In this document: positions 1-43,389 of the stretch, piece by piece
How the letters are laid out: each line of letters starts with the position of its first letter
Position numbering within the stretch: position 1 is the first letter of the stretch
Source of the DNA: a virus
Taxonomy: Duplodnaviria > Heunggongvirae > Uroviricota > Caudoviricetes
IMG/VR virus record: IMGVR_UViG_2778261064_000026
Coordinates: 1 to 43,389 of that record
DNA: 43,389 nt
Strand: one strand, 5' to 3'
Translations under genes and position numbers: made by a program
Notes under the pieces: generated by a model
Seen by the model: the letters and a program-made list of their open reading frames with translations, nothing else
Told to the model about the DNA's origin: nothing
Database searches by the model: none

Positions 1-270
1 ATGAACATTACCAAAGCAATCCATAACTATGCTCGCCGCCGTGGAATCGAACTTCAACTCGAAGATGAGCAGGTTAGATTCTGGGAGATAGAACAAGATT
101 GTGAATGGATGTTCAGCTATTCGGTTGCTCAATGTGGTTGCTTGTTCTGGAAAGGTAATGTGTATCTTCCTCGCGATATTAAAGAAGAACTTCCGGCGAT
201 GATTGACACCGATAAGAAGTTAAAGGAAGTCTTAGATTTTATCTACAAAGAGTTTATTAGCAAGAAGTAA
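1..270 (+). CDS. hypothetical protein, 89 aa (ATG at window position 1; may be 5'-truncated)
   Basis: ORF track; followed by hairpin plus T-run at 281-308; no motif recognised. Confidence 0.3.
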   Translation: MNITKAIHNYARRRGIELQLEDEQVRFWEIEQDCEWMFSYSVAQCGCLFWKGNVYLPRDIKEELPAMIDTDKKLKEVLDFIYKEFISKK

Positions 271-280
271 TTTCTAATTT

Positions 281-308
281 GGTGGGTGCAATTCCCACCG
301 CTTTTTAA
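281..308 (+). terminator. rho-independent terminator-like hairpin
   Basis: ggtgggtgcaattcccacc stem-loop followed by ctttttaaa. Confidence 0.4.
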
Positions 309-323
309 ACTGGAGAATCAAAC

Positions 324-404
324 ATGTTAGCTTTTATCTCATTCGTGGGAGGTAGTCTCACAACTATGATTAGTCTTTCTTATCTTGTCGTTAGTATGGG
401 GTGA
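324..404 (+). CDS. possible 26-aa hydrophobic peptide (MLAFISFVGGSLTTMISLSYLVVSMG)
   Basis: ATG preceded by ggag about 8 nt upstream; below ORF-track size cutoff; hand-translated. Confidence 0.15.
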   Translation: MLAFISFVGGSLTTMISLSYLVVSMG

Positions 405-407
405 GCA

Positions 408-533
408 ATGAAACAATTTCATGATGGCATTTCATCTAAGACATTCAAGAAAGAATATAGCGGATTGTGTATTAACTGGATTGATTTAATTGGTGCGGTT
501 GTGTTTGGTCTGGTAATTAGCATCAATTTTTAA
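408..533 (+). CDS. possible 41-aa small membrane peptide with C-terminal hydrophobic helix
   Basis: ATG preceded by ggggtga; hand-translated MKQFHDGISSKTFKKEYSGLCINWIDLIGAVVFGLVISINF. Confidence 0.2.
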   Translation: MKQFHDGISSKTFKKEYSGLCINWIDLIGAVVFGLVISINF

Positions 534-577
534 CGATATAAATATATCGTAATTCAAATAACAAAGAGGATTCTACT

Positions 578-823
578 ATGAAAAAGATTATCGCTGGTAT
601 CGTTCTTGCTCTGGGTTTGGTTGGTGCTGCAAATGCCGAACAATATGTACAGGGTGATAGTGTCAAGCGTGCTGCCGTTGCACCTTCTTTAAATCAACTG
701 TGTACTGAATTAGCACAGATTGCCGGAGTTGGTGACGATGACGACTTTATTACTGCGTGTGTATGGAGTCATATCGAGGATATTAATAAACGTGATGCAA
801 AACTAACTGGAAAGAAATATTAA
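578..823 (+). CDS. small secreted protein, 81 aa, with signal peptide (cleavage after ANA), two Cys and a DDDD patch
   Basis: ORF track; strong RBS aagagga; N-terminal MKKIIAGIVLALGLVGAANA; own terminator downstream. Confidence 0.5.
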   Translation: MKKIIAGIVLALGLVGAANAEQYVQGDSVKRAAVAPSLNQLCTELAQIAGVGDDDDFITACVWSHIEDINKRDAKLTGKKY

Positions 824-839
824 TGACTTACTAACCAAT

Positions 840-880
840 GCCCCTATCGTTATAATACGCGGTAGGGGCTTTTTGTTTTG
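840..880 (+). terminator. rho-independent terminator 9 nt upstream of the recombinase start
   Basis: gcccctatcg...cggtaggggc stem followed by tttttgtttt. Confidence 0.6.
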
Positions 881-888
881 GAAATGGT

Positions 889-2568
889 ATGAAAACTAAA
901 CTGTATTCGTATATTCGCTTCTCGTCTATGCGTCAGAATGATGGTTCGAGTTATGAACGACAAATCAGGATGGCGAGAGAGATTGCGGCAAAGTATGACC
1001 TTGAACTGGTAAATGATTATCAGGATCTGGGTGTATCTGCGTTTAAGGGTGCTAACTCTAAAACAGGGGCGCTATCTCGTTTCCTTGATGCAATTGGTAG
1101 ATCCGTTCCTGTTGGTAGCTGGCTATTCATCGAAAACTTGGACCGTTTATCCCGTGCCGATATTGTCAGTGCGCAGGAGTTATTCCTTTCAATCATCCGT
1201 AGGGGAATAACCATTGTTACTGGCATGGATAACAAGATCTACTCGCTGGATACTGTTACCGCTAATCCGATGGACCTGATGTTCTCCATCCTTTTATTCA
1301 TCCGTGGTAATGAGGAAAGTCAGACTAAGCGCAATCGTACTAATTCAAGCGCACTGATTAAGATTAAATCGCATCAAGAAAATCCCCAGAATCCGGCAGT
1401 GGCAATCGAGGAAGTTGGAAAGAATATGTGGTGGACTGATACCACTTCCGGTTATGTGCTGCCTCATCCGGTGTACTTCCCTGTTGTTCAGGAGATTGTG
1501 GAATTACGGAAGAATGGACGTTCAACCGCCGAAATACTGGATCACCTTAACGAGACATATGCACCACCACCAGCAGTAAGCAACAAGAAGCATTCAAAAT
1601 GGTCACGGGCAATGGTTGAAAGGTTGTTCCATACCCGCGCTTTGATTGGTATCAAGGAAGTCTCTGTAGATGGCGTTAACTATGAGTTAAAGGATTATTA
1701 CCCTCGTGTTATTGATGACCCTACGTTCTATCACCTTAAGAAAAATATTGGTGCTAGAGCATGGAACTTTGGAGACAAGGAAGAAGTTAAACCGATCCCC
1801 CTGCTTAGTGGTATTGGCCTATTGAAATGTGATCATTGCGGTTGCGCTATGGTTAAAGTGAAGGGAACAAACAAACGTTCTGACCAGTATCGTTATACAT
1901 GTGATGCGACCCGTTCACGTAGACTTGATTGCGAGCATCCAAACTGGAGTTTTCGAGGGGATCAATTAGAGAAAGCTGTATTGCAATTGCTGGCTGATAA
2001 AATCTGGATTGCTGAGGATAAGGCTAATCCGGTTCCGGCGTTGAAAGTACAGGTTGATGAAATATCACGCAAGATTGATAACCTGATTGCCCTTTCTGCT
2101 ATGACAGGAGCAACGAAGGAGCTAGCCGATCAGATTACTACCCTCAATAGCGAGCGTGAAACACTCTACAATCAGATCAAGATGGCAGAAGAGGAAATGT
2201 ATTCTGTTGACTCTCAAGGCTGGGAGAAGCTCGCAGAATTTGATTTAGAAGATGTTTATAACGAGGAACGACTAAAGGTCCGGTTTAAGATTAAGCAAGC
2301 TCTAAAGCGGATCGGGTGTAGCAGGATTGACAGAAACAAAAACTTGTTTGTACTGGAATACATCGATGGAAAGACCCAGAGAGTTGTAATAGAAAATTCA
2401 AGAGGAACGAGGAAAGGCCGGATATTCATTGATTTGAAAACTATCAATGATAGGCAGATTCTGGAGAGTAACGGGCTTGTTCTGCATCCATGTTTAGACA
2501 TGCTGACAGATAAGAACTGGAAACCAGAGGAGGAAATACCAGGTCCATTACAGGAATTTGGAATTTAA
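889..2568 (+). CDS. large serine recombinase (integrase/resolvase-type), 559 aa
   Basis: N-terminal YIRFSSMRQ catalytic-Ser motif and LDRLSR motif of serine recombinases; Cys-rich zinc-ribbon-like segment (CDHCGC...C...C); C-terminal coiled coil. Confidence 0.8.
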   Translation: MKTKLYSYIRFSSMRQNDGSSYERQIRMAREIAAKYDLELVNDYQDLGVSAFKGANSKTGALSRFLDAIGRSVPVGSWLFIENLDRLSRADIVSAQELFLSIIRRGITIVTGMDNKIYSLDTVTANPMDLMFSILLFIRGNEESQTKRNRTNSSALIKIKSHQENPQNPAVAIEEVGKNMWWTDTTSGYVLPHPVYFPVVQEIVELRKNGRSTAEILDHLNETYAPPPAVSNKKHSKWSRAMVERLFHTRALIGIKEVSVDGVNYELKDYYPRVIDDPTFYHLKKNIGARAWNFGDKEEVKPIPLLSGIGLLKCDHCGCAMVKVKGTNKRSDQYRYTCDATRSRRLDCEHPNWSFRGDQLEKAVLQLLADKIWIAEDKANPVPALKVQVDEISRKIDNLIALSAMTGATKELADQITTLNSERETLYNQIKMAEEEMYSVDSQGWEKLAEFDLEDVYNEERLKVRFKIKQALKRIGCSRIDRNKNLFVLEYIDGKTQRVVIENSRGTRKGRIFIDLKTINDRQILESNGLVLHPCLDMLTDKNWKPEEEIPGPLQEFGI

Positions 2569-2604
2569 GCGGCCTAAATCGACGTATAACGAGCTAAAAC
2601 AGTT

Positions 2605-2636
2605 AAGGGGTACAGATGTACCCCTTTTTAATTTAA
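2605..2636. terminator. bidirectional terminator between convergent genes
   Basis: aaggggtacagatgtacccctt hairpin with flanking A and T runs. Confidence 0.55.
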
Positions 2637-2641
2637 TTGCG

Positions 2642-3817
2642 TTAGGCAGCGTCTAAGAGAGTATTAAAGTATTCATCCATTAAATCAGGACTGTCGTCAT
2701 CAATACAGAAAAATTCCGGTTTATTGATGCCGTAGAAGTGAGTATGTAGCTTGAATGTATCGTCATCAAATACATCTTTCTGGGATACCCACATATTAGC
2801 CTCGTCCGGTTGATTGGTTAGGTAGTCATAAACCAGTTGCTGTAAGTGTGGTAACTCATCAATAGTCAGAGTTTCCGACCATCCATCCTTGAAATCTTTG
2901 TAGGGTGCTGCATGAGTCTTGAAGCGTTGTTTTACTTCATGCTCTAAATCAACGGCTTTCCAACCATCCTCAAACTCATGAGTAAAGATTAAGCGGTGAG
3001 TGAAGTTGCTCTTTCTGGTTTGCTCTCTCATTCGTTCTTCTGGTTTCCGGGTAGTGATTCCAAATTTAATAAATTTGTCATCTAATAATTGAATATAGAA
3101 ACTAGCCTTACCCTGATAAGTCCGGTTAGACAGTTGCACCAGTTGGTCTTTAATGCAAAGCGGACAAGTGAAAGAATCAGCACATCTTAAATGAGATTCC
3201 CATTCGTGATTATGTGTCTTGCAATAGGTTTTAAATTTAACATCCTTTAGGTGTGGGGTGTTTATGATGAATCCTTTGAAGGTGTAAGGCGTACTCTCGC
3301 AACGTGCATTGATGATTGTCTCTTTGTCCTTAATAACTTCATCAAAAGTCTTGCCACTTCTTACCCGTTGGGATTTTTCAGCCATACAGATTTTGCAATC
3401 AAAATCGAAATCATCTTTGAGAGCATGTAATAGAGATGGCGTCATGATTTGATTGTGTTCAGGGCACAAAACACGGGATTTTGTCTTGTTGCGCCCTTTC
3501 CATTCTCCTTGCCATCCGAGGAATTTCTTTCCCTTCTCATTACAACGAGATTCCATTTTCAACCATACAGCCTTTTCAGTCTGGAGTAACTCACCCCCGT
3601 TAGTATCTTCCAGTTTGCGTAATTTGTAGTCCTTATATTCTTGTGTATCTAAATTGTAGATTCGAAAGTAAGTGTGATTACCCTTCCACGGTAGGATAAA
3701 TCCACCAAATACGAAAGCAGGTTCCAGTTTAGCGATGATTCGTTGTTGGTACTCTTCCGGCGATAAACCGCGAGTTTTCTTAACAAAAGGAATTTCGGCA
3801 GCGTAAGCAAGTTTCAT
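2642..3817 (-). CDS. T5orf172 (GIY-YIG-like) domain protein with several Cys-pair zinc-finger-like motifs, about 391 aa from internal ATG
   Basis: FIKFGITTRKPEERMREQ motif; multiple CxxC/CxxH pairs; start moved to MKLAYAAE because of RBS gaggaaact; track ORF extends to 3928. Confidence 0.5.
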   Translation of the reverse strand: MKLAYAAEIPFVKKTRGLSPEEYQQRIIAKLEPAFVFGGFILPWKGNHTYFRIYNLDTQEYKDYKLRKLEDTNGGELLQTEKAVWLKMESRCNEKGKKFLGWQGEWKGRNKTKSRVLCPEHNQIMTPSLLHALKDDFDFDCKICMAEKSQRVRSGKTFDEVIKDKETIINARCESTPYTFKGFIINTPHLKDVKFKTYCKTHNHEWESHLRCADSFTCPLCIKDQLVQLSNRTYQGKASFYIQLLDDKFIKFGITTRKPEERMREQTRKSNFTHRLIFTHEFEDGWKAVDLEHEVKQRFKTHAAPYKDFKDGWSETLTIDELPHLQQLVYDYLTNQPDEANMWVSQKDVFDDDTFKLHTHFYGINKPEFFCIDDDSPDLMDEYFNTLLDAA

Positions 3818-3876
3818 AGTAGTTTCCTCTAAAATAATAAGCTCACTACTATTTATTAGAGAAAATTGTCTTACTA

Positions 3877-3904
3877 TTGCATTCTCTATCTGGATGTGTA
3901 CAAT
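3877..3904 (+). promoter_or_regulatory. sigma70-like promoter (TTGCAT, 16-nt spacer, TACAAT) for the 3971 gene
   Basis: hexamers read directly from sequence. Confidence 0.3.
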
Positions 3905-3970
3905 ACGCGACCCTAAATCCCAAACCAACCATATTGAGGTTATGCCTATAAGTTAAAAAGTGAGGTCTAT

Positions 3971-4540
3971 ATGATTCCAGTAATGGCTAAAGATATTGTT
4001 TTTACTCCTAAATCCTCCCGTGCTGCAACTCCATCGGCATTAGAACAACGCATTCTGACTCACATCAAAGAGAAGGACTTACCGTTAGTCTTTCATGGCT
4101 TTCTGGGTGAGTTTAAAGGGCTTCATTCAAGAATTGCTCTTACATGTACCCGATGCGGCAATAGAGCCGACAAATCAGCTACCAACCTGCTTAATGAAGG
4201 TAAACGCTGTGCATGTCTCAAAAGTGATTACTTTCAATATAAAGCGGGTGTGCCTTATCTCTATGTAATGAAATCAGGGGATATTGGTAAATTTGGTGTA
4301 ACAAAGTCAATCATCAAGCGACGTGTTAATCTGGGTGTACGCAATCCCGGTCATAACTTTGATATTGTCTTTGCTGGTGAAATGCCATCAATGAAACATG
4401 CTTTAGCCACTGAAAGAGCAATAAAGAGATTACTGGATGTGGGTATAGGCGGGATTGAATACGGCAAAACTGAAACATTCCACTACTGCAATAAATCACT
4501 AAACAATATAAAGAATATTGCAAGTGTGGAGTGGAACTAA
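3971..4540 (+). CDS. T5orf172/GIY-YIG-like domain protein, 189 aa, N-terminal Cys cluster
   Basis: YLYVMKSGDIGKFGVTKS motif; RBS gtgagg; stop overlaps helicase start (TAATG). Confidence 0.4.
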   Translation: MIPVMAKDIVFTPKSSRAATPSALEQRILTHIKEKDLPLVFHGFLGEFKGLHSRIALTCTRCGNRADKSATNLLNEGKRCACLKSDYFQYKAGVPYLYVMKSGDIGKFGVTKSIIKRRVNLGVRNPGHNFDIVFAGEMPSMKHALATERAIKRLLDVGIGGIEYGKTETFHYCNKSLNNIKNIASVEWN

Positions 4541-6030
4541 TGCAAGATATTAAAATTCATTTTCAAGATTACAGTTTCGTTAAGGTTGATTGCTCTCCTT
4601 CTATCGGAATGGAATTAAGAGATTATTTCTCGTTTGAGGTTGAAGGGGCTAGGTTTAGCCCCCGCTACAAGTATTCCGGCTGGGATGGACGAATAAGACT
4701 GTTTACGCATGAAAATATCCTACCAATTGGACTATTAAAAACGTTGGGTGTCTTCGTTAAAAATATGGGCTATTCAGTCTGGATTGACCCGCGATTGCTT
4801 GAGAAGGAAGATGTAACCAAAGACGCGATTAATGAATGGATTGATTCCCTAGAAGTGTATTCCGGTTCCAATAAAATCAATCCTTACTGGTATCAAAGGG
4901 AGGCAGTCTTTCAGGGTATCCATAATCGCCGTAGAATGCTGGTTCTTCCTACCAGTGCCGGAAAGTCATTGATTGCTTGTATGCTGTCTCGTTGGTACTT
5001 AGAGAACTACACCGGAAAGATTCTAATCATTGTCCCGACTACATCGCTGGTGGTTCAAATGAGGGATGATTTTGTTGATTATCGGTTATTCCCTTATGAA
5101 GCAATCCATACAATGATGAGTGGTAGCGGGAAACATCCGGGAGACAGGTTAATCACGGTTAGTACCTGGCAATCAGCTTGCAAGATGCCTCCTGAATGGT
5201 TCAAACAATATGGAATGTTGATAGTTGATGAATCGCATAAGGCTAGTGCCAAAAATATTACCAATATCATTAACGGAATGAATCATTGCCAGTTTAAGAT
5301 CGGTATGACTGGTTCCCCGAAAGAATCAAAGTGCCATTTAATGCAATACGTCGGTATGTTCGGTGATATTTCTAAGATCGTGAGTATTGACCGCCTGATG
5401 GAAGAAGGGCAGGTGACAAAACTGAAAATTAACTGTCTTTTCCTTCGTTATACCGATGAGGAATGTAGCGCGGTTAAGGGGCGAGAATATGCGGAAGAGA
5501 TCAAGTACATCACTTCGCACGGGAGACGAAATAAGTTTGTGTGTAATTTGGCGCTAAAACTCGCTAAGAAGAACGAAAACGTATTTCTGATGTTCCGTAA
5601 CACTAAACACGGAAAACTTATGTATGACGCGTTACAGAAGGTACATGATAAGGTTTATTACATTGATGGTGGAGTTAAGACAGAAGAACGTGATGAATTT
5701 AAGAAAATGGCGGAGGGTGACACCGGGATCATTTGTGTTGCGTCTTATGGTGTGTTCTCTACTGGTGTTTCAATTAAGAACTTGCACCATGTCATTTTCG
5801 GTCATCCGGTGAAAGAATCAACTATCGTTCGTCAGAGTATTGGCCGTGCATTGCGTAAACATGGTTCTAAGGATATTGCGACCGTCTGGGATCTTATCGA
5901 TCATCTGTGTATATTCGGTCGTAACGGAAAAGTCAAGCATAAAAATTATGCGGTAAAACATGCACTTGAGAGAATCCGCTATTATCTAACCGACAAGTTC
6001 AGCTATGCAACTAAAACAATTGCTATATAA
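4540..6030 (+). CDS. SF2 DNA helicase, UvsW-like (recombination/repair helicase), 496 aa from ATG 4540
   Basis: Walker A LPTSAGKS, DExH box IVDESHKAS, motif VI QSIGRALRKHG; N-terminal domain and motif order resemble my recollection of T4 UvsW. Confidence 0.7.
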   Translation: MQDIKIHFQDYSFVKVDCSPSIGMELRDYFSFEVEGARFSPRYKYSGWDGRIRLFTHENILPIGLLKTLGVFVKNMGYSVWIDPRLLEKEDVTKDAINEWIDSLEVYSGSNKINPYWYQREAVFQGIHNRRRMLVLPTSAGKSLIACMLSRWYLENYTGKILIIVPTTSLVVQMRDDFVDYRLFPYEAIHTMMSGSGKHPGDRLITVSTWQSACKMPPEWFKQYGMLIVDESHKASAKNITNIINGMNHCQFKIGMTGSPKESKCHLMQYVGMFGDISKIVSIDRLMEEGQVTKLKINCLFLRYTDEECSAVKGREYAEEIKYITSHGRRNKFVCNLALKLAKKNENVFLMFRNTKHGKLMYDALQKVHDKVYYIDGGVKTEERDEFKKMAEGDTGIICVASYGVFSTGVSIKNLHHVIFGHPVKESTIVRQSIGRALRKHGSKDIATVWDLIDHLCIFGRNGKVKHKNYAVKHALERIRYYLTDKFSYATKTIAI

Positions 6031-32236: not shown

Positions 32237-32497
32237 AGTGGAAATCCTCTAAAAGAAAGTGAATCAAACAAAGTACACTATTATTTATAACGAGAAATTT
32301 TTGTCTAATTTGAAAGGAATTGGTATTCAGTCGGCTTCGCCTCCTTCATAGATTTTGATTAAATCATCATCAAAACGAAGAAGTATCTTTAGAATATAAG
32401 AATCTTTCTTTTGGAGAAATTATAATCAGGAAGCAATTTAGCAACCGAAGGTTGCAATCCCGAAGGGATAACCAATACCTTTCATGATCATTAAAGT

Positions 32498-32720
32498 GAT
32501 CTAGAATCATCTAGTAACCAGTTAACTACTATTATCTTCAAAGTGATTATTACTATCTTTCTAGAATCAGTTAGTAACTAGTTTAAAAATCCCTTTCAAG
32601 AAAATCCTTTCAGAAGTGATTCTCGATGCCACGCAGTGGCGTCGCAGACGTTTGAGAGTGAGCGAAGCGAGCGAGCAAACTAGTTAATTCCTTCTAAGAC
32701 CATCTAGTATCATCTAGTTT
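32498..32720. repeat. cluster of CTAG-rich palindromic repeats
   Basis: ctagaatcatctagtaaccagttaact, ctagaatcagttagtaactagtt, catctagtatcatctagtt; palindromes AGTTAACT, AACTAGTT, TTCTAGAA. Confidence 0.4.
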
Positions 32721-32865
32721 AAATTAGTGTTACTAGAAGTAATTGGTTAGCGCTTCGCGCAGTCGGGCTACGCCCTCCTAATATCTTTTTGGTTATTTGT
32801 TGTTTTTGGTTTTACACATGAGCGTAGCGAATGTGTTATATAATATCTATGCACGCCCGATTCCC

Positions 32866-33110
32866 CGTTTTTGCCCCTCGCTAAGTTAATGTTTTATAAA
32901 GAGTTTTTCTCACCAATCCTTTTCGGGGGCAAATTTCAGGGGCAAAAATTAGATTTTCAGGGGCAATTATTGGCATTTCAGGGGCAAAAATGAGGGGCAA
33001 AATCACCGTTTCCCAGAATTTCAGGGGCAAAAATAGTAGGTTTCAGGGGCAAAAATGGGATAGTGAAATCTAGGGGATTTTGGTTCAGGGGCAAAATTCA
33101 GGGGCAATTT
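32866..33110. repeat. iteron array: nine direct copies of (T)TCAGGGGCAA(AAAT) plus one inverted copy
   Basis: GGGGCAA cores at about 32926, 32939, 32960, 32981, 32995, 33024, 33046, 33088, 33101; inverted at 32871; spacings mostly 13-14, 21-22, 42 bp. Confidence 0.65.
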
Positions 33111-33148
33111 TCATAGTGTAGTGCTAGTGTAGGTTTGAAAGTCCTTTC

Positions 33149-33177
33149 TTGACACTATGTAGGTTTGGTGCTATACT
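33149..33177 (+). promoter_or_regulatory. near-consensus sigma70 promoter P1 (TTGACA, 17 nt, TATACT)
   Basis: read directly from sequence. Confidence 0.6.
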
Positions 33178-33206
33178 TGACAATTTGAGAAAAAATGTGG
33201 TATAAT
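33177..33206 (+). promoter_or_regulatory. consensus sigma70 promoter P2 (TTGACA, 18 nt, TATAAT), overlapping P1
   Basis: read directly from sequence. Confidence 0.6.
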
Positions 33207-33626
33207 ATTTGTATTGAAAGTGAAAATTTACCGATTTTCCTTCCTATTGTTATCACCGTGTTAAATTGTTATATGTTTGTGAAGATTTGGATCTGAGAGA
33301 AAATCTTGTAACAAATCTTTACAATTCATAGCTCAATTAATGCTCACCGCTTTAGCAAAAAGTGCTATGCATTTTTCTAAATTGATTGAATAAACATCAA
33401 TTTGGTTAATTCGTGTTCTTCTCTTTAGCAATTCGTGCTGCGGTTTAACACATTTAACACGTCTGATAACATCTGAATAACATTTTAACATATCTCTGTT
33501 ATAAATACATATATAAGAGATAAATGTGAGGGGTTGAAAAATAAAATACAATCCCCATATAAATAATAGTGAGCGGTTAACGCTCTTTTTTAAGAAATCA
33601 TTAATCCAGATTTAGGAGGATTTAAG

Positions 33627-33809
33627 ATGGCACGACCTGTTAAGTTCACTCGTGAAATCGTTTTAGAAATGGCAAAGCGTTATTTTGAACTGACACCTGA
33701 TGTAGTGATGGGTGAATGGTTTAAAGGTGAAGGTATTGATCAATCAACCTTCCACAAACTCTTAAAGAAGTATGACATTAAAGTAAAGATTACCGCAGAG
33801 GTGTGGTAA
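33627..33809 (+). CDS. small HTH DNA-binding protein, 60 aa (FTRE...KKYDIK family)
   Basis: MARPVKFTREIVLEMAKRYF...GIDQSTFHKLLKKYDIK; RBS aggagga. Confidence 0.5.
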   Translation: MARPVKFTREIVLEMAKRYFELTPDVVMGEWFKGEGIDQSTFHKLLKKYDIKVKITAEVW

Positions 33810-33922
33810 TAACCTTTCACTGAGAATTATATGATGGCTTTAAAAAAGAAAAAGCCTCCCTTGTTGCAGCAAAGGAGGCTTGAAATGAACAATTAAAACT
33901 AACTTTCCACGGAGTATTTATA

Positions 33923-36732: not shown

Positions 36733-36746
36733 TTGGAAATCGGGTG

Positions 36747-37187
<441 letters not shown>

Positions 37188-37226
37188 TCAATTCCCGCCA
37201 AGGATAGCAGGAAACCTGATGCTTTA

Positions 37227-38204
<978 letters not shown>

Positions 38205-38335
38205 TTATCGTTATGATCTACAAAGGCCACCAGCATAACAAATCCGTGGTCGGTGGCAAAAAAAGCAGATTTCGCTTATTAAAACTGCATATTGATTGAA
38301 GTTTGAATAAACGCGCGATTTTTTTAAAAAGTTTG

Positions 38336-38364
38336 TTGACCTCAGGTCATGATTTCCCTAAATT
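38336..38364 (+). promoter_or_regulatory. tRNA promoter (TTGACC, 17 nt, TAAATT, GC-rich discriminator)
   Basis: read directly from sequence upstream of serX. Confidence 0.45.
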
Positions 38365-38398
38365 AGCGCCCGTTCCAGCAAGACAGGAACGACAATTT

Positions 38399-38486
38399 GG
38401 TGAGGTGTCCGAGTGGCTGAAGGAGCACGCCTGGAAAGTGTGTATACGGCAACGTATCGGGGGTTCGAATCCCCCCCTCACCGCCA
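38399..38486 (+). tRNA. serX: tRNA-Ser (anticodon GGA)
   Basis: GGTGAGGTGTCCGAGTGGCTGAAGGAGCACGCCTGGAAAGTGTG...GGTTCGAATCCCCCCCTCACCGCCA with long variable arm and encoded CCA; ghrA neighbour. Confidence 0.9.
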
Positions 38487-38492
38487 GATTAT

Positions 38493-38530
38493 AAGCGCAT
38501 GTTATTGTTTAACATGCGCTTTTTTATTTT
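38493..38530 (+). terminator. rho-independent terminator of serX
   Basis: aagcgcatgttattgtttaacatgcgctt plus ttttttatttt. Confidence 0.7.
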
Positions 38531-38635
38531 CCCTTCCAGACAGTATGCCATCGGGTATGCCATCTGAAACCGGTTTATATGCCCCGCGATCATATCTTAT
38601 CGGACAATTTCCGATCTTTGAGCATACTGGCAAAG

Positions 38636-39478
38636 CTATACTGCCAGCATATCAGGATAGTGTTTTGCGATAATATCATTCAGTCTGTCAACCAGTTCTG
38701 GTTTTCTGAACGTGATATGCGCGGAGCCCTTCTTAAAGTATCTGATGCTGAACATCTCATCTTCATAGCTCTCTTTACCCTGAACAGACTGAATGTGATC
38801 ATCCAGACGAAGGGTGATGTTTCCCCGGTTGTCGGGGATTGGTTTACCGCTGAACAGGTGCAACATTCTTTCCAGATCGGCGAGTCGGTCAGCCTGTTGT
38901 CCGGTGATAAGATGAAATCCCCACCGGTCCCATCTCACCAGATTGTTGACGATAATTTTACTGCCAAATTTACAGGGGCAATTGGTTTTGTAATTCCAGT
39001 TCAGCCCTCTGAAGACGTTGATCACCCCTCGCTCAAACACCTCATCCTTATTCTGGTGCAGTTGTTCAAATGTGCTCAGAATGTTCGCTTCGCTGATTTC
39101 CGGAAAATTATCGTACTCCAGTGACCGGTACCATGTATCACGGGCCTGCGTATCCATTAATGACAGCATCCCGGAACGTTGCATCAGGTCACGCCAGATT
39201 TCGCGATCAAGATTCCGGGTAATGGCTTTCATTGCTGTTTCGGGTTTCTCCATCAGCCAGCAGCCGCAGCGAAAATCCTGTTTCATGGCCCAGTCCGGGG
39301 CAGTTTTACCTCCGATGCTTTCCGTCAGCACCGAGATTTCAGCCAGTTGTCGGATAAGTGTGTCGATTTGCAACAGTGTACTCTTTCGTACAGCCAGAAT
39401 GTGGCGAATGCTGGTTGAGCAGATAACGTCCGTATGCCCGTTGACCACTTCCGGACGGGAGATTGTGATATCTGACAT
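38636..39478 (-). CDS. DUF4942-type island protein, 280 aa
   Basis: recollection of conserved gene set of CP4-type E. coli islands; position beside toxin-antitoxin module. Confidence 0.45.
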   Translation of the reverse strand: MSDITISRPEVVNGHTDVICSTSIRHILAVRKSTLLQIDTLIRQLAEISVLTESIGGKTAPDWAMKQDFRCGCWLMEKPETAMKAITRNLDREIWRDLMQRSGMLSLMDTQARDTWYRSLEYDNFPEISEANILSTFEQLHQNKDEVFERGVINVFRGLNWNYKTNCPCKFGSKIIVNNLVRWDRWGFHLITGQQADRLADLERMLHLFSGKPIPDNRGNITLRLDDHIQSVQGKESYEDEMFSIRYFKKGSAHITFRKPELVDRLNDIIAKHYPDMLAV

Positions 39479-39562
39479 AATCGATATTCCTTTTTGCAGA
39501 TAAATGAAAACGCCAGCCCTGTGCAGGCTGGCGTCAGAGGAATGAAGTCTGGTGAGTGAGCT

Positions 39563-39760
39563 TCACCGGTTCTGGTGCAGAAGCTGCAGATGACGCAGGG
39601 TACGGACATCCTCCCGGGCCTGTTCGATACAGGGCAACAGTGCTGCTGAATCCGTTTTATCCTCATCGTTGTCAAAGATAATTCCCGATCCGCAGTCGAT
39701 ATTGTCCTGCAGCCACGCAATCAGAATATCCAGCGCTGTTTCCGTGGTTAATGATTTCAT
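39563..39760 (-). CDS. small island protein (DUF957-like), about 65 aa from MKSL
   Basis: ORF track (39563..39805) trimmed to internal ATG to avoid overlap; conserved neighbourhood. Confidence 0.3.
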   Translation of the reverse strand: MKSLTTETALDILIAWLQDNIDCGSGIIFDNDEDKTDSAALLPCIEQAREDVRTLRHLQLLHQNR

Positions 39761-39771
39761 GTTGTTCCTGG

Positions 39772-40263
39772 TTACCAGTCGAAAGTGGGTAAACCCGGCA
39801 GGCATTCAGCGCTGGCATCCAGATGAATGAGACTGACGCCATAACGCCGGATGAGTGTGACGACCAGACGACGGAACGTTTTTGACAGCCCCAGGCGTTT
39901 AAGCCGCAGAACCGGGTATGACCACGCATCGGTACGTAACAGATATCCGCTACCTGTAAAATGAATCCATTCTGATTCACCGAAGTCACTGGTCTGGTGT
40001 GACAGCGAGTACAACCAGGCGTTGTCCGTTTCCGTGATATGTGCGGTACTGCAGCGTATGCCGGTAAGGGTAGCAAATGGTGGCGTGCATTCTGCTGAGG
40101 TCTGGTCAGATTCATCAACAACACGAAGGGAGTAGCCGTTATCGCAGACCATGTTAATCAGTTCAGCGAGCTCAATACCATCGACGTCAACGACAATGCG
40201 CCCCATGTTCAGTGCCTGTACGTTAACGCTGTCGGCTTCCAGTGTCAGGGCCAGTTTCATCAT
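39772..40263 (-). CDS. YeeW-like/DUF5983-type protein, 163 aa
   Basis: gene directly downstream of cbtA-family toxin, as in CP4-type islands. Confidence 0.4.
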
Positions 40264-40634
40264 TTCGCCTCCGGATACTTACCCAGGGTAATGTTATTTA
40301 CCGTTCTGTAATTGTCGCGGGTCATCAGGCCGGTCGCCCGGCGAGCCCGGAGGATATCAATACTGTTTATTAACTGAGAGCGGGGACAGGTGCTGAATCC
40401 CGGCTGGTCGGTACGCACCAGCGCGTATTTTTCCACGAGAAAATTAACTGCATCACACAGTGAAATGCCTGCCTCAATATGCTGCTCAATCACACGTTCA
40501 TCGGCAAACGGTGTGTCATTCAGTGTGAGGCCATAATGCTGGTCCAGCAGTCGGATGAGCAGTGTCTGCCAGATGGTGACGGGAGACGGGCAGCGAGATA
40601 CCTCCCGTACATGTGTGTCGGATAATGTTTTCAT
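40260..40634 (-). CDS. cbtA: type IV toxin, CbtA/YeeV/YkfI family, 124 aa
   Basis: [59 protein letters not shown]... matches CbtA-family sequence as I recall it; track ORF extends to 40736. Confidence 0.8.
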
Positions 40635-40680
40635 CTTAAGTTCTCTGTAACTGGTAGTGCTAAAGGTGAGAGCTTCGGGG

Positions 40681-41055
40681 TTATGAGGTGGTTGCGGGTG
40701 CTGGTGTCGGATAAACAGCCAGATAAACGTAACCACAGGAGCCGAGGGTGTCGGCTTCGCAGGTCAGCCCTTTTGCATTCAGCGTGACGGTATGCTGATA
40801 TCGGGGATTCAGTTCACCGCTGGTGAGCATGAGTTCCAGTTGTTTCATCAGCAGCGGAAAGGCCTGGTCCAGATGGTATGCATCTGCGTCGCTGAAGCGG
40901 CCTCTGATACCGGCGCGGTCGGCAAGGTAATGCAGGCGGTTACCCTCTTGCACCAGACGAGCGCCAAAACAGGGCCTCACTGTGCAGGGAAGCCCCCACC
41001 AGGGGCGGTCGTGATTGTCATCGGGATGAGTTATCCCGGAGAGTTTGTCTGACAC
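40681..41055 (-). CDS. cbeA: type IV antitoxin, CbeA/YeeU/YafW family, 124 aa
   Basis: [51 protein letters not shown] matches YeeU-family; upstream of toxin. Confidence 0.8.
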
Positions 41056-41217
41056 GATAAAATCCTCTCTGAAAAGTGGTTAAGAATGGTTTAACGATGA
41101 CAGGTCAGCCGGCGCGCTGACCGGTTTCGGTGAAGATGTATGCATTGATGAGAATGGCCTCATCCACAGCGGCGTCTGAGGTCATCTGGTCGTACTCGTT
41201 TCCCGGGTGACGGAACA

Positions 41218-41439
41218 TCAGTTCAGGGTGACACTCATCAGCCGGACATACGGGCCAAAACTGTCCTTACGGCGTTCTGCAAACACGGCAAGAACGCCGG
41301 GAATATCCTGCACTTCACGACCAGTATACGCTTCAGCACTGCCGTGCCAGCGATACTTACCGGTACAGAACGGAAAAAGACGGGATGCAGGATGCTGTTG
41401 GTGAATACGCATGGCTTCACCACGGGTGATGATTCTCAT
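41218..41439 (-). CDS. YeeT-like (DUF987) protein, 73 aa
   Basis: MRIITRGEAMRIHQQHPASRLFPFCTGKYRWHGSAEAY... matches K-12 YeeT family as I recall it. Confidence 0.6.
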   Translation of the reverse strand: MRIITRGEAMRIHQQHPASRLFPFCTGKYRWHGSAEAYTGREVQDIPGVLAVFAERRKDSFGPYVRLMSVTLN

Positions 41440-41502
41440 GATGTGATACCTCTGAAGACAGAAGATAAAAGTGAAAACAGGTGTGATGTTGGTTGTGACG
41501 GG

Positions 41503-41994
41503 TTAAAGCAGACCATGTTCGGCAAAGGAGAAAACCTGGTTGCCACCGACTATCAGATGGTCCGGCACCCGGATATCCACCAGGCCCAGTGCCTGTACCA
41601 GACGTTCGGTGATAAGCCGGTCTGCCTTACTGGGTGTGACTTCACCGGACGGGTGATTGTGCGCCAGCACCACGGCAGCGGCATTGTGGTACAGGGCGCG
41701 TTTAATCACTTCCCGGGGATGAACTTCCGTACGGTTGATGGTGCCGGTGAAGAGGGTTTCACCGGCAATCAGCTGATTCTGGTTGTTCAGATACAGCACC
41801 CGGAACTCTTCCCGCTCCAGTCCCGCCATGTTCAGAATCAGCCATTCCCGTGCCGCACGGGTGGAGGTGAAGGCCACGCCGGGTTCATGAAGATGGCGGT
41901 CCAGGGTTTGCAGGGCCCGCAGAATGAGACTGCGCTCGCCGGGCGTCATCTCTCCGGGCAGAAAGGAAAGCTGCTGCATTGTCCCTGCCTCCAT
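41503..41994 (-). CDS. RadC-like JAB-domain protein (YeeS/YkfG/YfjY family), 163 aa
   Basis: HNHPSGEVTPSKADRLIT motif typical of RadC/JAMM fold. Confidence 0.75.
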   Translation of the reverse strand: MEAGTMQQLSFLPGEMTPGERSLILRALQTLDRHLHEPGVAFTSTRAAREWLILNMAGLEREEFRVLYLNNQNQLIAGETLFTGTINRTEVHPREVIKRALYHNAAAVVLAHNHPSGEVTPSKADRLITERLVQALGLVDIRVPDHLIVGGNQVFSFAEHGLL

Positions 41995-42480
41995 TCAGTC
42001 AATGATGCGCATAATGGCGCTGCATTCCGGATGCTGCAGGGCGTAATCCCGCAGCCGGTAATAGTGGACCGTCATGGCATAACACTCCGTACGACAGGCA
42101 TGATGACTGTACGTCATCAGACAGGCAGCAATACCGGCGGCTTCCGGGCTCATTTCAGCGCGGTTGCCGTTCATGGCATTGAACAGTACCCATGTTTCGT
42201 CATCATCGTCATCCGGTTCGGGTGCCATAAATGCCCCGCCGTTGTTCAGGGTGTACAGATTCCAGATACCACCGCAGTAGTCTTCGCAAAGACGGTCCAT
42301 CCAGCCGAAGACACGGGGCTCCAGGGTCACCCACTGTGGAATGAGGCCAAAATGCTGCGGCCAGAAGCTGATGCGCTGTTCATCAGGGACGGGAGTGGCA
42401 ACCAGCTGAGGTGGGTTATTCCCTGATGCAGTGGTTACGGAAACAGAAGGTGTGGTGGAATTATGCGAAACGGTTGTCAT
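41995..42480 (-). CDS. antirestriction protein, KlcA/ArdB-like (YfjX family), 161 aa
   Basis: conserved island gene order; acidic DDDDDE patch; family recognised from K-12 paralogs. Confidence 0.65.
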   Translation of the reverse strand: MTTVSHNSTTPSVSVTTASGNNPPQLVATPVPDEQRISFWPQHFGLIPQWVTLEPRVFGWMDRLCEDYCGGIWNLYTLNNGGAFMAPEPDDDDDETWVLFNAMNGNRAEMSPEAAGIAACLMTYSHHACRTECYAMTVHYYRLRDYALQHPECSAIMRIID

Positions 42481-42570
42481 GAGGTTATTCCTTATAAAAA
42501 GTAAATGAATGGAAGAAGCCCCGGGGCAGGAACAGATGTGAGTCAGGACTGCACTTTCAGTGAAACGGCA

Positions 42571-43389
42571 TCAGCGCATGCTCTCCAGCAGCGTTTCTGC
42601 CATCACCCACAATGCGCGATTGAGCTTAATGTCGGTATCAATGCTGTGAATGGCCCGGGTATGGATACGTTTTCCTTTTGCACTGCGACCGGAAATCCCG
42701 CCTTTCAGCATATTCTCCTGGATGGTCTGATAAGCACTCCACAGGTCCTTACCGTAATCCTCCCGGCGTCGTGGTGTCAGAATGTCGGCGGTGGTGACGG
42801 GCTGATGTTCGTCACCATAACGGTAAGTCAGTGCCGCCTGTGCCAGCGCCTGGCGTGCCGGTGGCGGCAGGACCAGCGACTGCATGGCATCACGCTTCTC
42901 CTCTATCCGGTCAAAAACGCCCACCACCTCGTAAGCCCCTTCAATGACTCTGTCCACCACATTTCCCCGGTGTGGAACACGCAATTCTCCCAGAGACTGA
43001 CCGCAGACCAGTCCATTGGTACAAATGGCACGAAAATATCCGGGTAACATCTGGTAGCTGGATGAACCGTCATGGGAGTTGAGCAGAATAATTTCAGGGA
43101 CATGCTGACCGGTTATCTGTCCGGCCCGCCGCAGACGCAGCATGTGTTTTGTGTATTCCCGGCGGCTCTGGTCGCGCACGCGGGTCTGGCAGGCAAAGAA
43201 CGGCTGAAAGCCTTCCTGCTGCAGATTTTCCAGGACGGTGATAGTGGGAATGTACGCATAGTGTTCACTGCGAGAGGTATGTCGGTTTTCCCCAAAAATA
43301 CTCGGTACATGGCGCATCAGTTCTTCGTGTGTCAGCGGACGATCACGACGTATCTGGTTCGCATAACCAAAACGACTGGCTAATCTCAT
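42571..43389 (-). CDS. DUF932-type island protein (YfjQ/YafZ family), 272 aa; ATG at window edge
   Basis: conserved position upstream of antirestriction/RadC genes. Confidence 0.55.
   Translation of the reverse strand: MRLASRFGYANQIRRDRPLTHEELMRHVPSIFGENRHTSRSEHYAYIPTITVLENLQQEGFQPFFACQTRVRDQSRREYTKHMLRLRRAGQITGQHVPEIILLNSHDGSSSYQMLPGYFRAICTNGLVCGQSLGELRVPHRGNVVDRVIEGAYEVVGVFDRIEEKRDAMQSLVLPPPARQALAQAALTYRYGDEHQPVTTADILTPRRREDYGKDLWSAYQTIQENMLKGGISGRSAKGKRIHTRAIHSIDTDIKLNRALWVMAETLLESMR

What the first reader, a model, noticed from the sequence alone, without database searches (positions are those of the whole stretch)
578..2568. Large serine recombinase placed directly behind a terminator and a secreted-protein gene
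The 559-aa serine recombinase starts 9 nt after a rho-independent terminator whose loop contains TTATAAT. The terminator closes a self-contained unit for an 81-aa secreted protein with a signal peptide, two Cys and a DDDD patch. Recombinase expression would therefore depend on terminator read-through, and the secreted protein is arranged like a moron. The recombinase is about 34 kb from the ycdX junction, so it is not obviously the integrase for that junction; it could act in inversion, resolution or integration elsewhere.
Basis: partly seen in the sequence, partly recalled or inferred. Interest (0 to 1): 0.5.

Follow-up and report, generated by a model that had tools for sequence, protein, structure and literature searches.

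The report
Serine integrase of a ycdX prophage
This gene is the integrase of a 37-kb E. coli prophage inserted in the ycdX gene; it looked orphaned only because the window stops 43 bases short of the junction next to it, so the finding is an ordinary, though uncharacterised, phage integration module.

Summary
The window holds an intact 559-aa large serine recombinase (889-2568), a strong hairpin plus T-run (840-879) ending 9 nt before its ATG with TATAAT in the loop, and an 81-aa protein with a textbook signal peptide (578-823).

The main interpretation is wrong. The recombinase is the prophage integrase. The prophage sits inside ycdX. One junction is at 36772-36773. In 99%-identical relatives the other lies 43 nt left of window position 1, about 0.93 kb upstream of the gene. 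Joining the host flanks restores K-12 ycdX exactly, and phage and host share only a 2-bp TT at the crossover. The rebuilt attP is an imperfect dyad (20/30 matches).

Homologues in Salmonella and Edwardsiella occupy the same ycdX spot. E. coli variants sit in hicB or codB, always about 1-1.5 kb from a broken host gene.

The hairpin is older than the secreted-protein gene, which is swappable cargo. TATAAT is kept while the stem changes, and Salmonella relatives score as TTCACC-17-TATAAT. This suggests the integrase has its own promoter inside the terminator (inferred, about 50%).

Verdict: new member of a known kind, low-to-moderate interest.

The parts
1..270 (+). First phage gene after the int-proximal junction (89 aa, PHROG 6147, function unknown). 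The P' arm of attP and the TT crossover lie 1-44 nt to the left of position 1, outside the window.
   Evidence: junction seen in relative L001
280..306 (+). Intrinsic-terminator-like hairpin plus T-run after ORF1
324..404 (+). 26-aa hydrophobic mini-ORF, conserved in the Salmonella relatives
408..533 (+). 41-aa ORF with a C-terminal hydrophobic segment. In the Salmonella and Edwardsiella relatives this ORF directly precedes the hairpin.
578..823 (+). Cargo gene: 81-aa exported protein. It has a Sec-type signal peptide with a predicted cut after A20. The 61-aa mature part is predicted to be a two-helix hairpin carrying the two conserved Cys (C42, C61). Function unknown.
828..856 (+). Putative integrase promoter: TTACTA (828-833), 17-bp spacer, TATAAT (851-856). 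Inferred, not shown.
840..879 (+). G+C-rich hairpin (840-869) plus T-run (870-879): an intrinsic terminator upstream of the integrase gene, with the TATAAT in its loop
889..2568 (+). Large serine recombinase, the prophage integrase (559 aa). Catalytic R10, S12, D85, R86, R89. Long helix E about 127-164, recombinase domain about 166-300, zinc ribbon with C314, C317, C338, C348, coiled coil about 382-438, and a C-terminal beta-rich part 472-533.
2605..2626 (.). Bidirectional terminator hairpin between the integrase gene and the convergent GIY-YIG/CapR gene
36744..36771 (+). P arm of attP, retained in the int-distal junction (GTGTTATTGGGGGTTGACTACGTTCGGG)
36772..36773 (.). Crossover dinucleotide TT. 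It is the only identity shared by attP and attB, and on the ycdX sense strand it is AA at nt 400-401 (codon Asn134).
36774..37172 (-). 5' part of host ycdX (codons 1-133 and the rest of codon 134), cut off by the insertion

Best explanation
The 559-aa protein is the large serine integrase of a prophage of about 36.8 kb. The integrase recombined a phage attP of roughly 56-60 bp (GTGTTATTGGGGGTTGACTACGTTCGGG-TT-CCCTAATATCATGTACCCACAATAACAC) with an attB inside the host gene ycdX (CATATTTGGGA-TT-TCCGGGATGGC, at the codons for H-P-G-N-P). It cut both sites at the central TT and rejoined them, which split ycdX. The integrase gene lies about 0.93 kb inside the prophage end. The stretch between att and int is a cargo zone: ORF1, two mini-ORFs and an exchangeable gene for an exported protein. 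The conserved hairpin just upstream of int stops transcription coming from the cargo zone. Its TATAAT probably serves as the -10 element of a weak int promoter. Transcripts from that promoter would start in the 3' arm and so escape termination. Shown here: the gene is intact, the junctions are as described, the reconstruction of attB is exact, and the layout is conserved. Inferred: catalytic activity, the promoter, and excision, for which no directionality factor was identified.
For: 1) Domains and catalytic residues are intact. Pfam finds Resolvase, Recombinase and Zn_ribbon_recom and PHROG 95 'integrase' scores 1e-62. R10, S12, D85, R86, R89 and four Cys are invariant across 22 homologues down to 29% identity. 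A profile of the family hits the SPbeta SprA integrase at 4.6e-21, as well as PhiC31, TP901-1 and another chain deposited as 'Integrase' (9iu2). The AlphaFold model has pLDDT 81 and its top 21 PDB matches are all serine integrases or resolvase-family recombinases.
2) Junctions. In the relative UTME-12 (99.1% identical over window 1-5000) the 3' part of ycdX abuts the phage 43 nt before window position 1. In the window, the 5' part of ycdX abuts the phage at 36773/36774. The left flank, TT and the right flank together equal K-12 ycdX over 62 bp, with nothing lost or duplicated. Identity between phage and host is limited to TT.
3) The rebuilt attP has 20/30 dyad matches, against 7.6 +/- 2.5 for 20,000 random positions in the window (maximum 19).
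4) 27 of 5,426 complete E. coli genomes carry both junctions, and at least 26 bp of the P arm is kept even where the neighbouring phage DNA differs.
5) The layout recurs. Salmonella (71-77% aa identity) and Edwardsiella (60%) homologues sit next to a broken ycdX with the same GGA/TGA-TT-C/GCC junction. E. coli variants sit next to a broken hicB (35 genomes) or codB, with aligned attPs and a TT at the same place.
6) No other integrase is annotated or detected in the prophage.
7) Hairpin. It is identical in all three E. coli site classes fetched from complete genomes, even where the recombinase gene is only 80% identical in DNA. Across 30 E. coli loci only single-base variants occur, plus one locus (L048) with a different hairpin. 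In Salmonella and Edwardsiella the stem changes but TATAAT stays. The promoter scan calls TTCACC-17-TATAAT (10/12) in two Salmonella relatives.
Against: The int-proximal junction is not in the window and is inferred from relatives 98-99% identical. No free or circular attP form was found in viral or metagenome contigs, so activity of this particular prophage is unproven. No recombination directionality factor was identified. In E. coli the -35 hexamer matches only 3/6 and the scan does not call a promoter. Two hairpin variants (L023, L048) carry the -10-like hexamer 5' of the stem rather than in the loop. Some relatives carry frameshifted or IS-interrupted copies, so parts of the family are decaying.
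Confidence: 0.9

Rival explanations
1. One reading: the recombinase is an accessory enzyme (DNA invertase, resolvase, or an integrase for some other site) that is unrelated to the ycdX insertion.
For: Within the window the only visible junction is 34 kb away, and no att-like inverted repeat lies near the gene. E. coli lambdoid phages do carry a non-integrase large serine recombinase, YbcK, which is 31% identical.
Against: The second junction is 0.93 kb upstream, just outside the window. The 2-bp crossover identity fits serine recombinases. The gene travels with a broken host gene in every relative examined, at three different sites. There is no other integrase in the element. At 559 aa with a zinc ribbon and a coiled coil it is not built like a small invertase or resolvase.
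Confidence: 0.03
2. The integrase gene has no promoter of its own. It is made only when transcription from the cargo genes reads through the hairpin terminator, and the TATAAT in the loop is incidental A+T-rich loop sequence.
For: The hairpin plus T-run is a strong terminator-like element in every lineage. The E. coli -35 is poor and no promoter is called. In L023 and L048 the -10-like hexamer lies outside the loop.
Against: TATAAT is unchanged in four hairpin variants whose stems and other loop bases differ. A TTnnnn hexamer sits exactly 17 bp upstream in each lineage read. Two Salmonella relatives score 10/12. The upstream gene differs or is absent among relatives, so read-through would couple int to unrelated cargo.
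Confidence: 0.35
3. The prophage is a defective remnant, and the recombinase is an intact-looking relic that no longer moves the element.
For: No attP-containing free form was found in public viral or metagenome contigs. No cultured phage resembles it at the DNA level. Some relatives have frameshifted or IS-disrupted recombinase genes.
Against: In the window the gene is full length with all catalytic residues. The element has a full set of head, tail, terminase and lysis genes. The same element type is found in unrelated strains from pigs, humans, dogs, cats and a frog, and at three alternative sites, which needs repeated recent integration.
Confidence: 0.15

Closest known systems
SPbeta SprA (YokA) large serine integrase of Bacillus subtilis
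   Same: Same domain order: catalytic domain, long helix E, recombinase domain, zinc ribbon with an inserted coiled coil. It is the best solved-structure match by profile (4.6e-21) and by fold (E 1e-16). It also inserts inside a host gene (spsM; PMC5499854).
   Different: Only about 14% identical. Gram-positive host. Its directionality factor SprB is known, and excision there rebuilds the host gene during sporulation. Nothing of that kind is shown here.
Bxb1 and PhiC31 integrases (model large serine integrases)
   Same: Same expected mechanism: attP x attB recombination of short sites with a non-palindromic central dinucleotide and no host cofactors (general knowledge of the family; PMC3783163). 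Fold matches are E 2e-15 and 8e-15.
   Different: 14-16% identity, actinobacterial phages, and different att sequences. Here the central dinucleotide is TT and the target is the H-P-G-N-P coding stretch of ycdX.
Serine recombinases of Burkholderia phages JC1, Bcep22 and Bcep176
   Same: Closest proteins in cultured phage genomes, annotated as integrase or serine recombinase.
   Different: Only 27-30% identical, in unrelated phage genomes. No DNA-level similarity of the window to any deposited phage.
YbcK-type large serine recombinase of lambdoid E. coli phages and DLP12
   Same: The only other E. coli phage-borne relative found, 31% identity over 81% of the length.
   Different: From my own knowledge, not tested here: YbcK lies in the interior of lambdoid genomes that integrate with a tyrosine integrase, so it is not their integrase. 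The gene studied here sits at the prophage end next to att.
E. coli large serine recombinases tested by Durrant et al. 2022 (Ec03, Ec04; PMC10083194)
   Same: Large serine recombinases mined from E. coli mobile elements with predicted att sites.
   Different: Neither the protein's N-terminal peptide nor the attP string occurs in the held supplementary tables. The listed Ec03 and Ec04 begin with other sequences. The full mined catalogue could not be checked.
Phage 'morons' (extra cargo genes between conserved neighbours)
   Same: The 81-aa gene is present in some relatives, absent in others and replaced in others, between the same neighbours.
   Different: No own promoter was detected. The downstream terminator belongs to the conserved int upstream region rather than to the cargo cassette.

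Membership tests
Large serine recombinase (phage serine integrase) | N-terminal resolvase-type catalytic domain with the serine nucleophile and the conserved Arg/Asp set | tested here: met
   PF00239 at 1.4e-14. R10, S12, D85, R86 and R89 are invariant in 22 homologues. The fold matches the TP901-1 and gamma-delta catalytic domains.
Large serine recombinase (phage serine integrase) | Recombinase domain followed by a zinc-ribbon domain with four Cys | tested here: met
   PF07508 at 1.3e-08 and PF13408 at 1e-10. C314, C317, C338 and C348 are invariant.
Large serine recombinase (phage serine integrase) | Coiled-coil motif inserted in the zinc-ribbon domain | tested here: met
   The AlphaFold model has two long antiparallel helices, 382-406 and 410-438, after the ribbon. 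The profile aligns through the SprA coiled-coil region. This is prediction only.
Large serine recombinase (phage serine integrase) | Conservative attP x attB exchange at a central dinucleotide, with no target duplication | tested here: met
   attL-left + TT + attR-right equals K-12 ycdX exactly over 62 bp. Phage-host identity is limited to TT.
Large serine recombinase (phage serine integrase) | attP of about 50 bp with imperfect dyad symmetry around the crossover | tested here: met
   20/30 symmetric positions against 7.6 +/- 2.5 by chance. The hicB-class attP has 19/30 and the codB-class attP 13/30.
Large serine recombinase (phage serine integrase) | Catalyses integration alone and needs a phage directionality factor for excision | not testable with these tools
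   No activity data exist, and no factor was identified among the prophage ORFs.
Rho-independent terminator | G+C-rich stem-loop immediately followed by a T-run | tested here: met
   11 pairs, 7 of them G-C, then TTTTTGTTTT. z = -4.4. The same architecture occurs in five sequence variants.
Sigma-70 promoter (for the integrase gene) | -35 and -10 hexamers with 16-18 bp spacing | tested here: inconclusive
   The window has TTACTA-17-TATAAT (9/12, but 3/6 in the -35), which is not called. Salmonella relatives have TTCACC-17-TATAAT at 10/12, which is called. No transcript data exist.
Sec-type signal peptide (81-aa protein) | Positive n-region, hydrophobic h-region, small residues at -3 and -1 | tested here: met
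   MKK / IIAGIVLALGLVGAA / A-N-A|E. The peak of mean hydropathy in 11-residue windows is 2.4. The peptide is conserved and is reused on a different mature domain in DEC5A. No dedicated predictor was available.
Moron (phage cargo cassette) | Extra gene between neighbours that are adjacent in related phages | tested here: met
   In the Salmonella and Edwardsiella relatives the 41-aa ORF is followed directly by the hairpin. E. coli relatives carry three different genes in that slot.
Moron (phage cargo cassette) | Own promoter and own terminator | tested here: not met
   No promoter was found upstream of 578. The terminator is also present in relatives that lack the gene, so it belongs to the int module.

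The most novel reading that the evidence does not exclude
This family may be a natural retargeting series of serine integrases. Enzymes 87-92% identical keep almost the same attP (4 differences within 26 bp either side of the TT) but insert into different E. coli genes, ycdX or hicB, and a more distant one inserts into codB. Site choice tracks 32 substitutions confined to residues 161-351 (recombinase and zinc-ribbon domains), while the catalytic domain is shuffled independently. In addition, the integrase gene may be driven by a promoter whose -10 element sits inside the loop of the terminator that insulates it. Neither has been described for enterobacterial phages as far as the searched literature shows.
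Probability: 0.4. Interest if true: 0.55.

Novelty: new member of a known kind. Interest (0 to 1): 0.3.

Why it matters
Most studied coliphages integrate with tyrosine integrases, and characterised serine integrases come largely from Gram-positive hosts. This is an uncharacterised enterobacterial clade, under 34% identical to any protein in deposited phage genomes. Its att sites can be written down to the base. It occurs in about 1% of complete E. coli genomes and inactivates ycdX, hicB or codB. The close variants with different host targets would give integrase engineers a small, natural set of specificity-changing substitutions to test. For the genome scan itself the lesson is practical. A provirus trimmed at a gene boundary can hide the att site and make an ordinary integrase look orphaned.

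Tried and rejected
- Megablast of window 1-5000 against deposited phages: no match.
- Single-sequence search of solved structures: no match. A family profile was needed.
- Exact search for the rebuilt attP in viral and metagenome contigs, to prove a free phage form: nothing.
- IMG/VR relatives are trimmed proviruses or integrated copies, not circles.
- Literature: ycdX with prophage or integrase gave only a table entry for a Cronobacter sakazakii prophage at ycdX, plus unrelated ycdX frameshift alleles in Salmonella Enteritidis. hicB with serine recombinase gave nothing relevant.
- The held Durrant et al. supplement contains neither the protein nor the att string.
- Function of the 81-aa protein: no Pfam, PHROG or PADLOC family. 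Homologues occur only in E. coli. An exhaustive profile search found only signal-peptide matches. The AlphaFold model is a helical hairpin with no significant fold match.
- Rfam: nothing in 1-3000.
- A formal covariation test of the hairpin was dropped because the six variants do not align reliably. They were folded one by one instead.
- The idea that the DDDD patch is functional was rejected, because it is not conserved.
- A scan of representative genomes returned only distant relatives.
Full report
**What is in the window**

Positions 1-36773 are phage DNA, and 36774 onward is E. coli chromosome. The host part holds the 5' portion of ycdX on the minus strand, then ghrA, tRNA-Ser at 38399-38483, and a CP4-type island with a CbtA/YeeU toxin-antitoxin pair. 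The phage part has 41.6% G+C against 49% for the host flank.

It encodes a UvsW-type helicase, a D-Ala-D-Ala carboxypeptidase-type endolysin, a tail tip, tail tube and tail fibre, a major head protein, terminase subunits and an anti-repressor-like protein. No deposited phage resembles it at the DNA level. However, 58 of 5,426 complete E. coli genomes match the first 5 kb, 12 of them over at least 80% of it.

**Checking the observation**

- The ORF at 889-2568 gives 559 aa with Resolvase, Recombinase and zinc-ribbon Pfam domains.
- A hairpin at 840-869 has 11 pairs and the loop TATAATAC. It is followed by TTTTTGTTTT, and the ATG comes 9 nt later.
- The hairpin folds far better than shuffled sequence (z -4.4).
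- The 81-aa ORF at 578-823 starts with a canonical signal peptide, MKKIIAGIVLALGLVGAANA|EQ.
- Across 15 homologue clusters, all from E. coli, the signal peptide and both Cys are conserved. The DDDD patch is not.

**The recombinase is the integrase**

In strain UTME-12, which is 99.1% identical over the first 5 kb, the DNA immediately left of the window's first base is the 3' part of ycdX followed by ycdY, ycdZ and the csg genes. I compared both junctions with intact K-12 ycdX.
- The host sequence runs ...CATATTTGGGA-TT and then switches to phage CCCTAATATC... on the left.
- On the right, phage ...ACGTTCGGG-TT switches to host TCCGGGATGG...
- Left flank + TT + right flank equals K-12 ycdX over 62 bp, with no loss or duplication.
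- The only sequence shared by phage and host at the crossover is TT, bounded by mismatches on both sides.

A 2-bp crossover is what serine recombinases produce. The TT lies 43-44 nt left of window position 1, so the integrase start codon is about 0.93 kb from the junction and the prophage is about 36.8 kb long.

The rebuilt attP, GTGTTATTGGGGGTTGACTACGTTCGGG-TT-CCCTAATATCATGTACCCACAATAACAC, has 20 of 30 positions symmetric. At 20,000 random window positions the mean was 7.6 +/- 2.5 and the maximum was 19. On the ycdX sense strand the crossover is AA at nt 400-401, in codon Asn134 of the H-P-G-N-P stretch.

The window starts exactly at the ATG of the first phage ORF. So do many IMG/VR provirus entries of this family. 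The hidden junction is therefore an artefact of provirus trimming.

**Support from relatives**

- 27 complete E. coli genomes carry both ycdX junctions. At the right junction at least 26 bp of the P arm is retained even where the adjoining phage DNA is different.
- Homologues in Salmonella (71-77% aa identity) and Edwardsiella tarda (60%) also lie next to a truncated ycdX beside ycdY, with the junction at the same place.
- Other E. coli relatives lie next to a truncated hicB (35 genomes with that junction).
- Others lie next to a truncated codB, including one in E. fergusonii.
- In these classes phage and host share TTGCC or TTACC, and the three attPs align with the TT in the same position.
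- In every case the recombinase gene is 0.2-1.5 kb from the broken host gene and reads away from it.
- No other integrase is annotated or detected in the element.

**The protein is intact**

- The catalytic residues R10, S12, D85, R86, R89 and the four zinc-ribbon cysteines are invariant in an alignment of 22 homologues reaching 29% identity.
- A profile of that alignment hits the SPbeta SprA integrase (4.6e-21), PhiC31, TP901-1 and another chain deposited as 'Integrase' (9iu2).
- The AlphaFold model (pLDDT 81) shows the expected catalytic domain, long helix E, helical recombinase domain, zinc ribbon and coiled coil, plus a beta-rich C-terminal part.
- Its top 21 PDB matches are all serine integrases or resolvase-family recombinases.
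- The closest proteins in cultured phages are only 27-33% identical.

**Target choice tracks the DNA-binding domains**

- The two hicB-class enzymes examined have identical recombinase domains and nearly identical zinc ribbons (135/135 and 70/72 residues).
- Their catalytic domains differ. One is 99% identical to the ycdX class and the other 79%.
- A further relative combines that second catalytic domain with ycdX-type DNA-binding domains.
- Of 39 class-specific substitutions between the ycdX and hicB enzymes, 32 fall in residues 161-351.
- The two classes' attPs differ at only four positions within 26 bp either side of the TT, whereas the attBs differ much more.

Whether the enzymes are strictly specific or can use each other's sites is untested.

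**The hairpin and integrase expression**

The hairpin, its loop, the T-run and the first codons are identical in all three E. coli site classes fetched from complete genomes. This holds even where the recombinase gene is only 80% identical in DNA, and even where the upstream gene is replaced right up to the stem. Across 30 E. coli loci only single-base variants were seen, plus one locus (L048) with a different hairpin.

It is also present in Salmonella and Edwardsiella, which lack the secreted-protein gene. It therefore belongs to the integrase module rather than to the cargo gene.

Across lineages the stem changes, but each version still folds strongly before a U-run:
- GCCCCTATCG...CGCGGTAGGGGC
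- GCCCCTATC...GGTAGGGGC
- GCCCTGC...GCGGGGC
- GCCCCTT...AAGGGGC

TATAAT stays in the loop in four variants. In one variant it sits just 5' of the stem, and in another a similar hexamer does. A TTnnnn hexamer lies 17 bp upstream in each lineage read. In two Salmonella relatives the scan calls TTCACC-17-TATAAT at 10/12. In the window the -35 is TTACTA (3/6) and nothing is called.

My reading, at about 50% confidence, is that the element is a terminator that shields int from upstream transcription and that it also carries the -10 of a weak int promoter. Transcripts from that promoter would begin in or past the 5' arm and so cannot form the hairpin.

**The secreted protein**

It is cargo. The slot that begins at 578 holds one of three genes in different relatives:
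- the 81-aa protein;
- a 137-aa protein with the same signal peptide but an unrelated mature part;
- a 348-aa CapR-repeat/GIY-YIG-like gene.

In the Salmonella and Edwardsiella relatives examined (L009, L011, L012) nothing lies between the 41-aa ORF and the hairpin.

No promoter of its own was found. Nothing indicates its function:
- no family match;
- no homologues outside E. coli prophages;
- a predicted two-helix hairpin carrying the two conserved Cys, with no significant structural neighbour.

**Verdict**

This is an ordinary phage integration module: a large serine integrase next to its att site, with a cargo zone in between. It belongs to an uncharacterised enterobacterial clade. It is a new member of a known kind.

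Two points are mildly interesting. One is the natural series of near-identical integrases with three different host targets. The other is the conserved terminator with a -10 hexamer in its loop.

Noticed in passing
L017 2541-3001 (Escherichia sp. ESNIH1) and L018 2544-3001 (Leclercia tamurae): A different large serine recombinase lineage (33-34% identical) is also inserted in ycdX. The host sequence ends at about nt 400-404 of the gene, within a few bases of the crossover used here. In these loci the recombinase gene sits about 55 nt from the junction, on the other side of the element. The H-P-G-N-P coding stretch of ycdX may be a recurrent target for serine integrases. A Cronobacter sakazakii prophage at ycdX is also listed in PMC3680222.
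   Followed up: partly
window 32860-33110, inside the ORF-poor stretch 32237-33922: At least ten copies of TTCAGGGGCAAAA occur, spaced at about 10.5 or 21 bp, with inverted copies at 32863-32878. A second repeat, TCTAGAATCATCTAGTA, occurs at 32500-32720. These look like iteron or operator arrays.
   Followed up: no
window 2642-3928 (-) and 3971-4540 (+); L048 578-1624: Genes with CapR-homology repeats and a GIY-YIG/MUG113-type nuclease domain flank the integrase gene, and in one relative such a gene occupies the cargo slot upstream of it. They are absent from some relatives. If they are homing-type nucleases, they might explain why the 5' (catalytic-domain) part of the integrase gene is shuffled independently of the rest. 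That is speculation.
   Followed up: partly
window 324-404 and 408-533: Two tiny ORFs (26 aa fully hydrophobic; 41 aa with a hydrophobic tail) are conserved between ORF1 and the integrase gene in the E. coli and Salmonella relatives. A 41-aa-like ORF also occurs in Edwardsiella. They have no family match.
   Followed up: partly
window 535-549: A near-perfect A+T-rich palindrome, GATATAAATATATCG, lies at the left boundary of the cargo slot, just after the 41-aa ORF and 28 nt before the ATG of the secreted-protein gene.
   Followed up: no
window 1 (left edge) and 36774-43389: The window begins at the ATG of the first phage ORF, as IMG/VR provirus entries of this family do. On the right it runs 6.6 kb into the host (ycdX 5' part, ghrA, tRNA-Ser, CP4-type island). 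The boundaries are those of a provirus prediction, not of the element.
   Followed up: yes
NZ_CP063332.1 (BS74R-D) and NZ_CP157110.1 (UTME-9): These two genomes carry a family member at both ycdX and hicB. The two site classes can therefore coexist in one cell.
   Followed up: no
window 36747-37172 (-): The insertion leaves a 141-aa ycdX fragment ending in 7 non-ycdX residues (Asn134 itself is kept, as AAC). The 3' part is separated by the whole prophage, so lysogens should lack YcdX. Transcription of the ghrA-ycdX-ycdY-ycdZ operon would run into the prophage from its right end.
   Followed up: no
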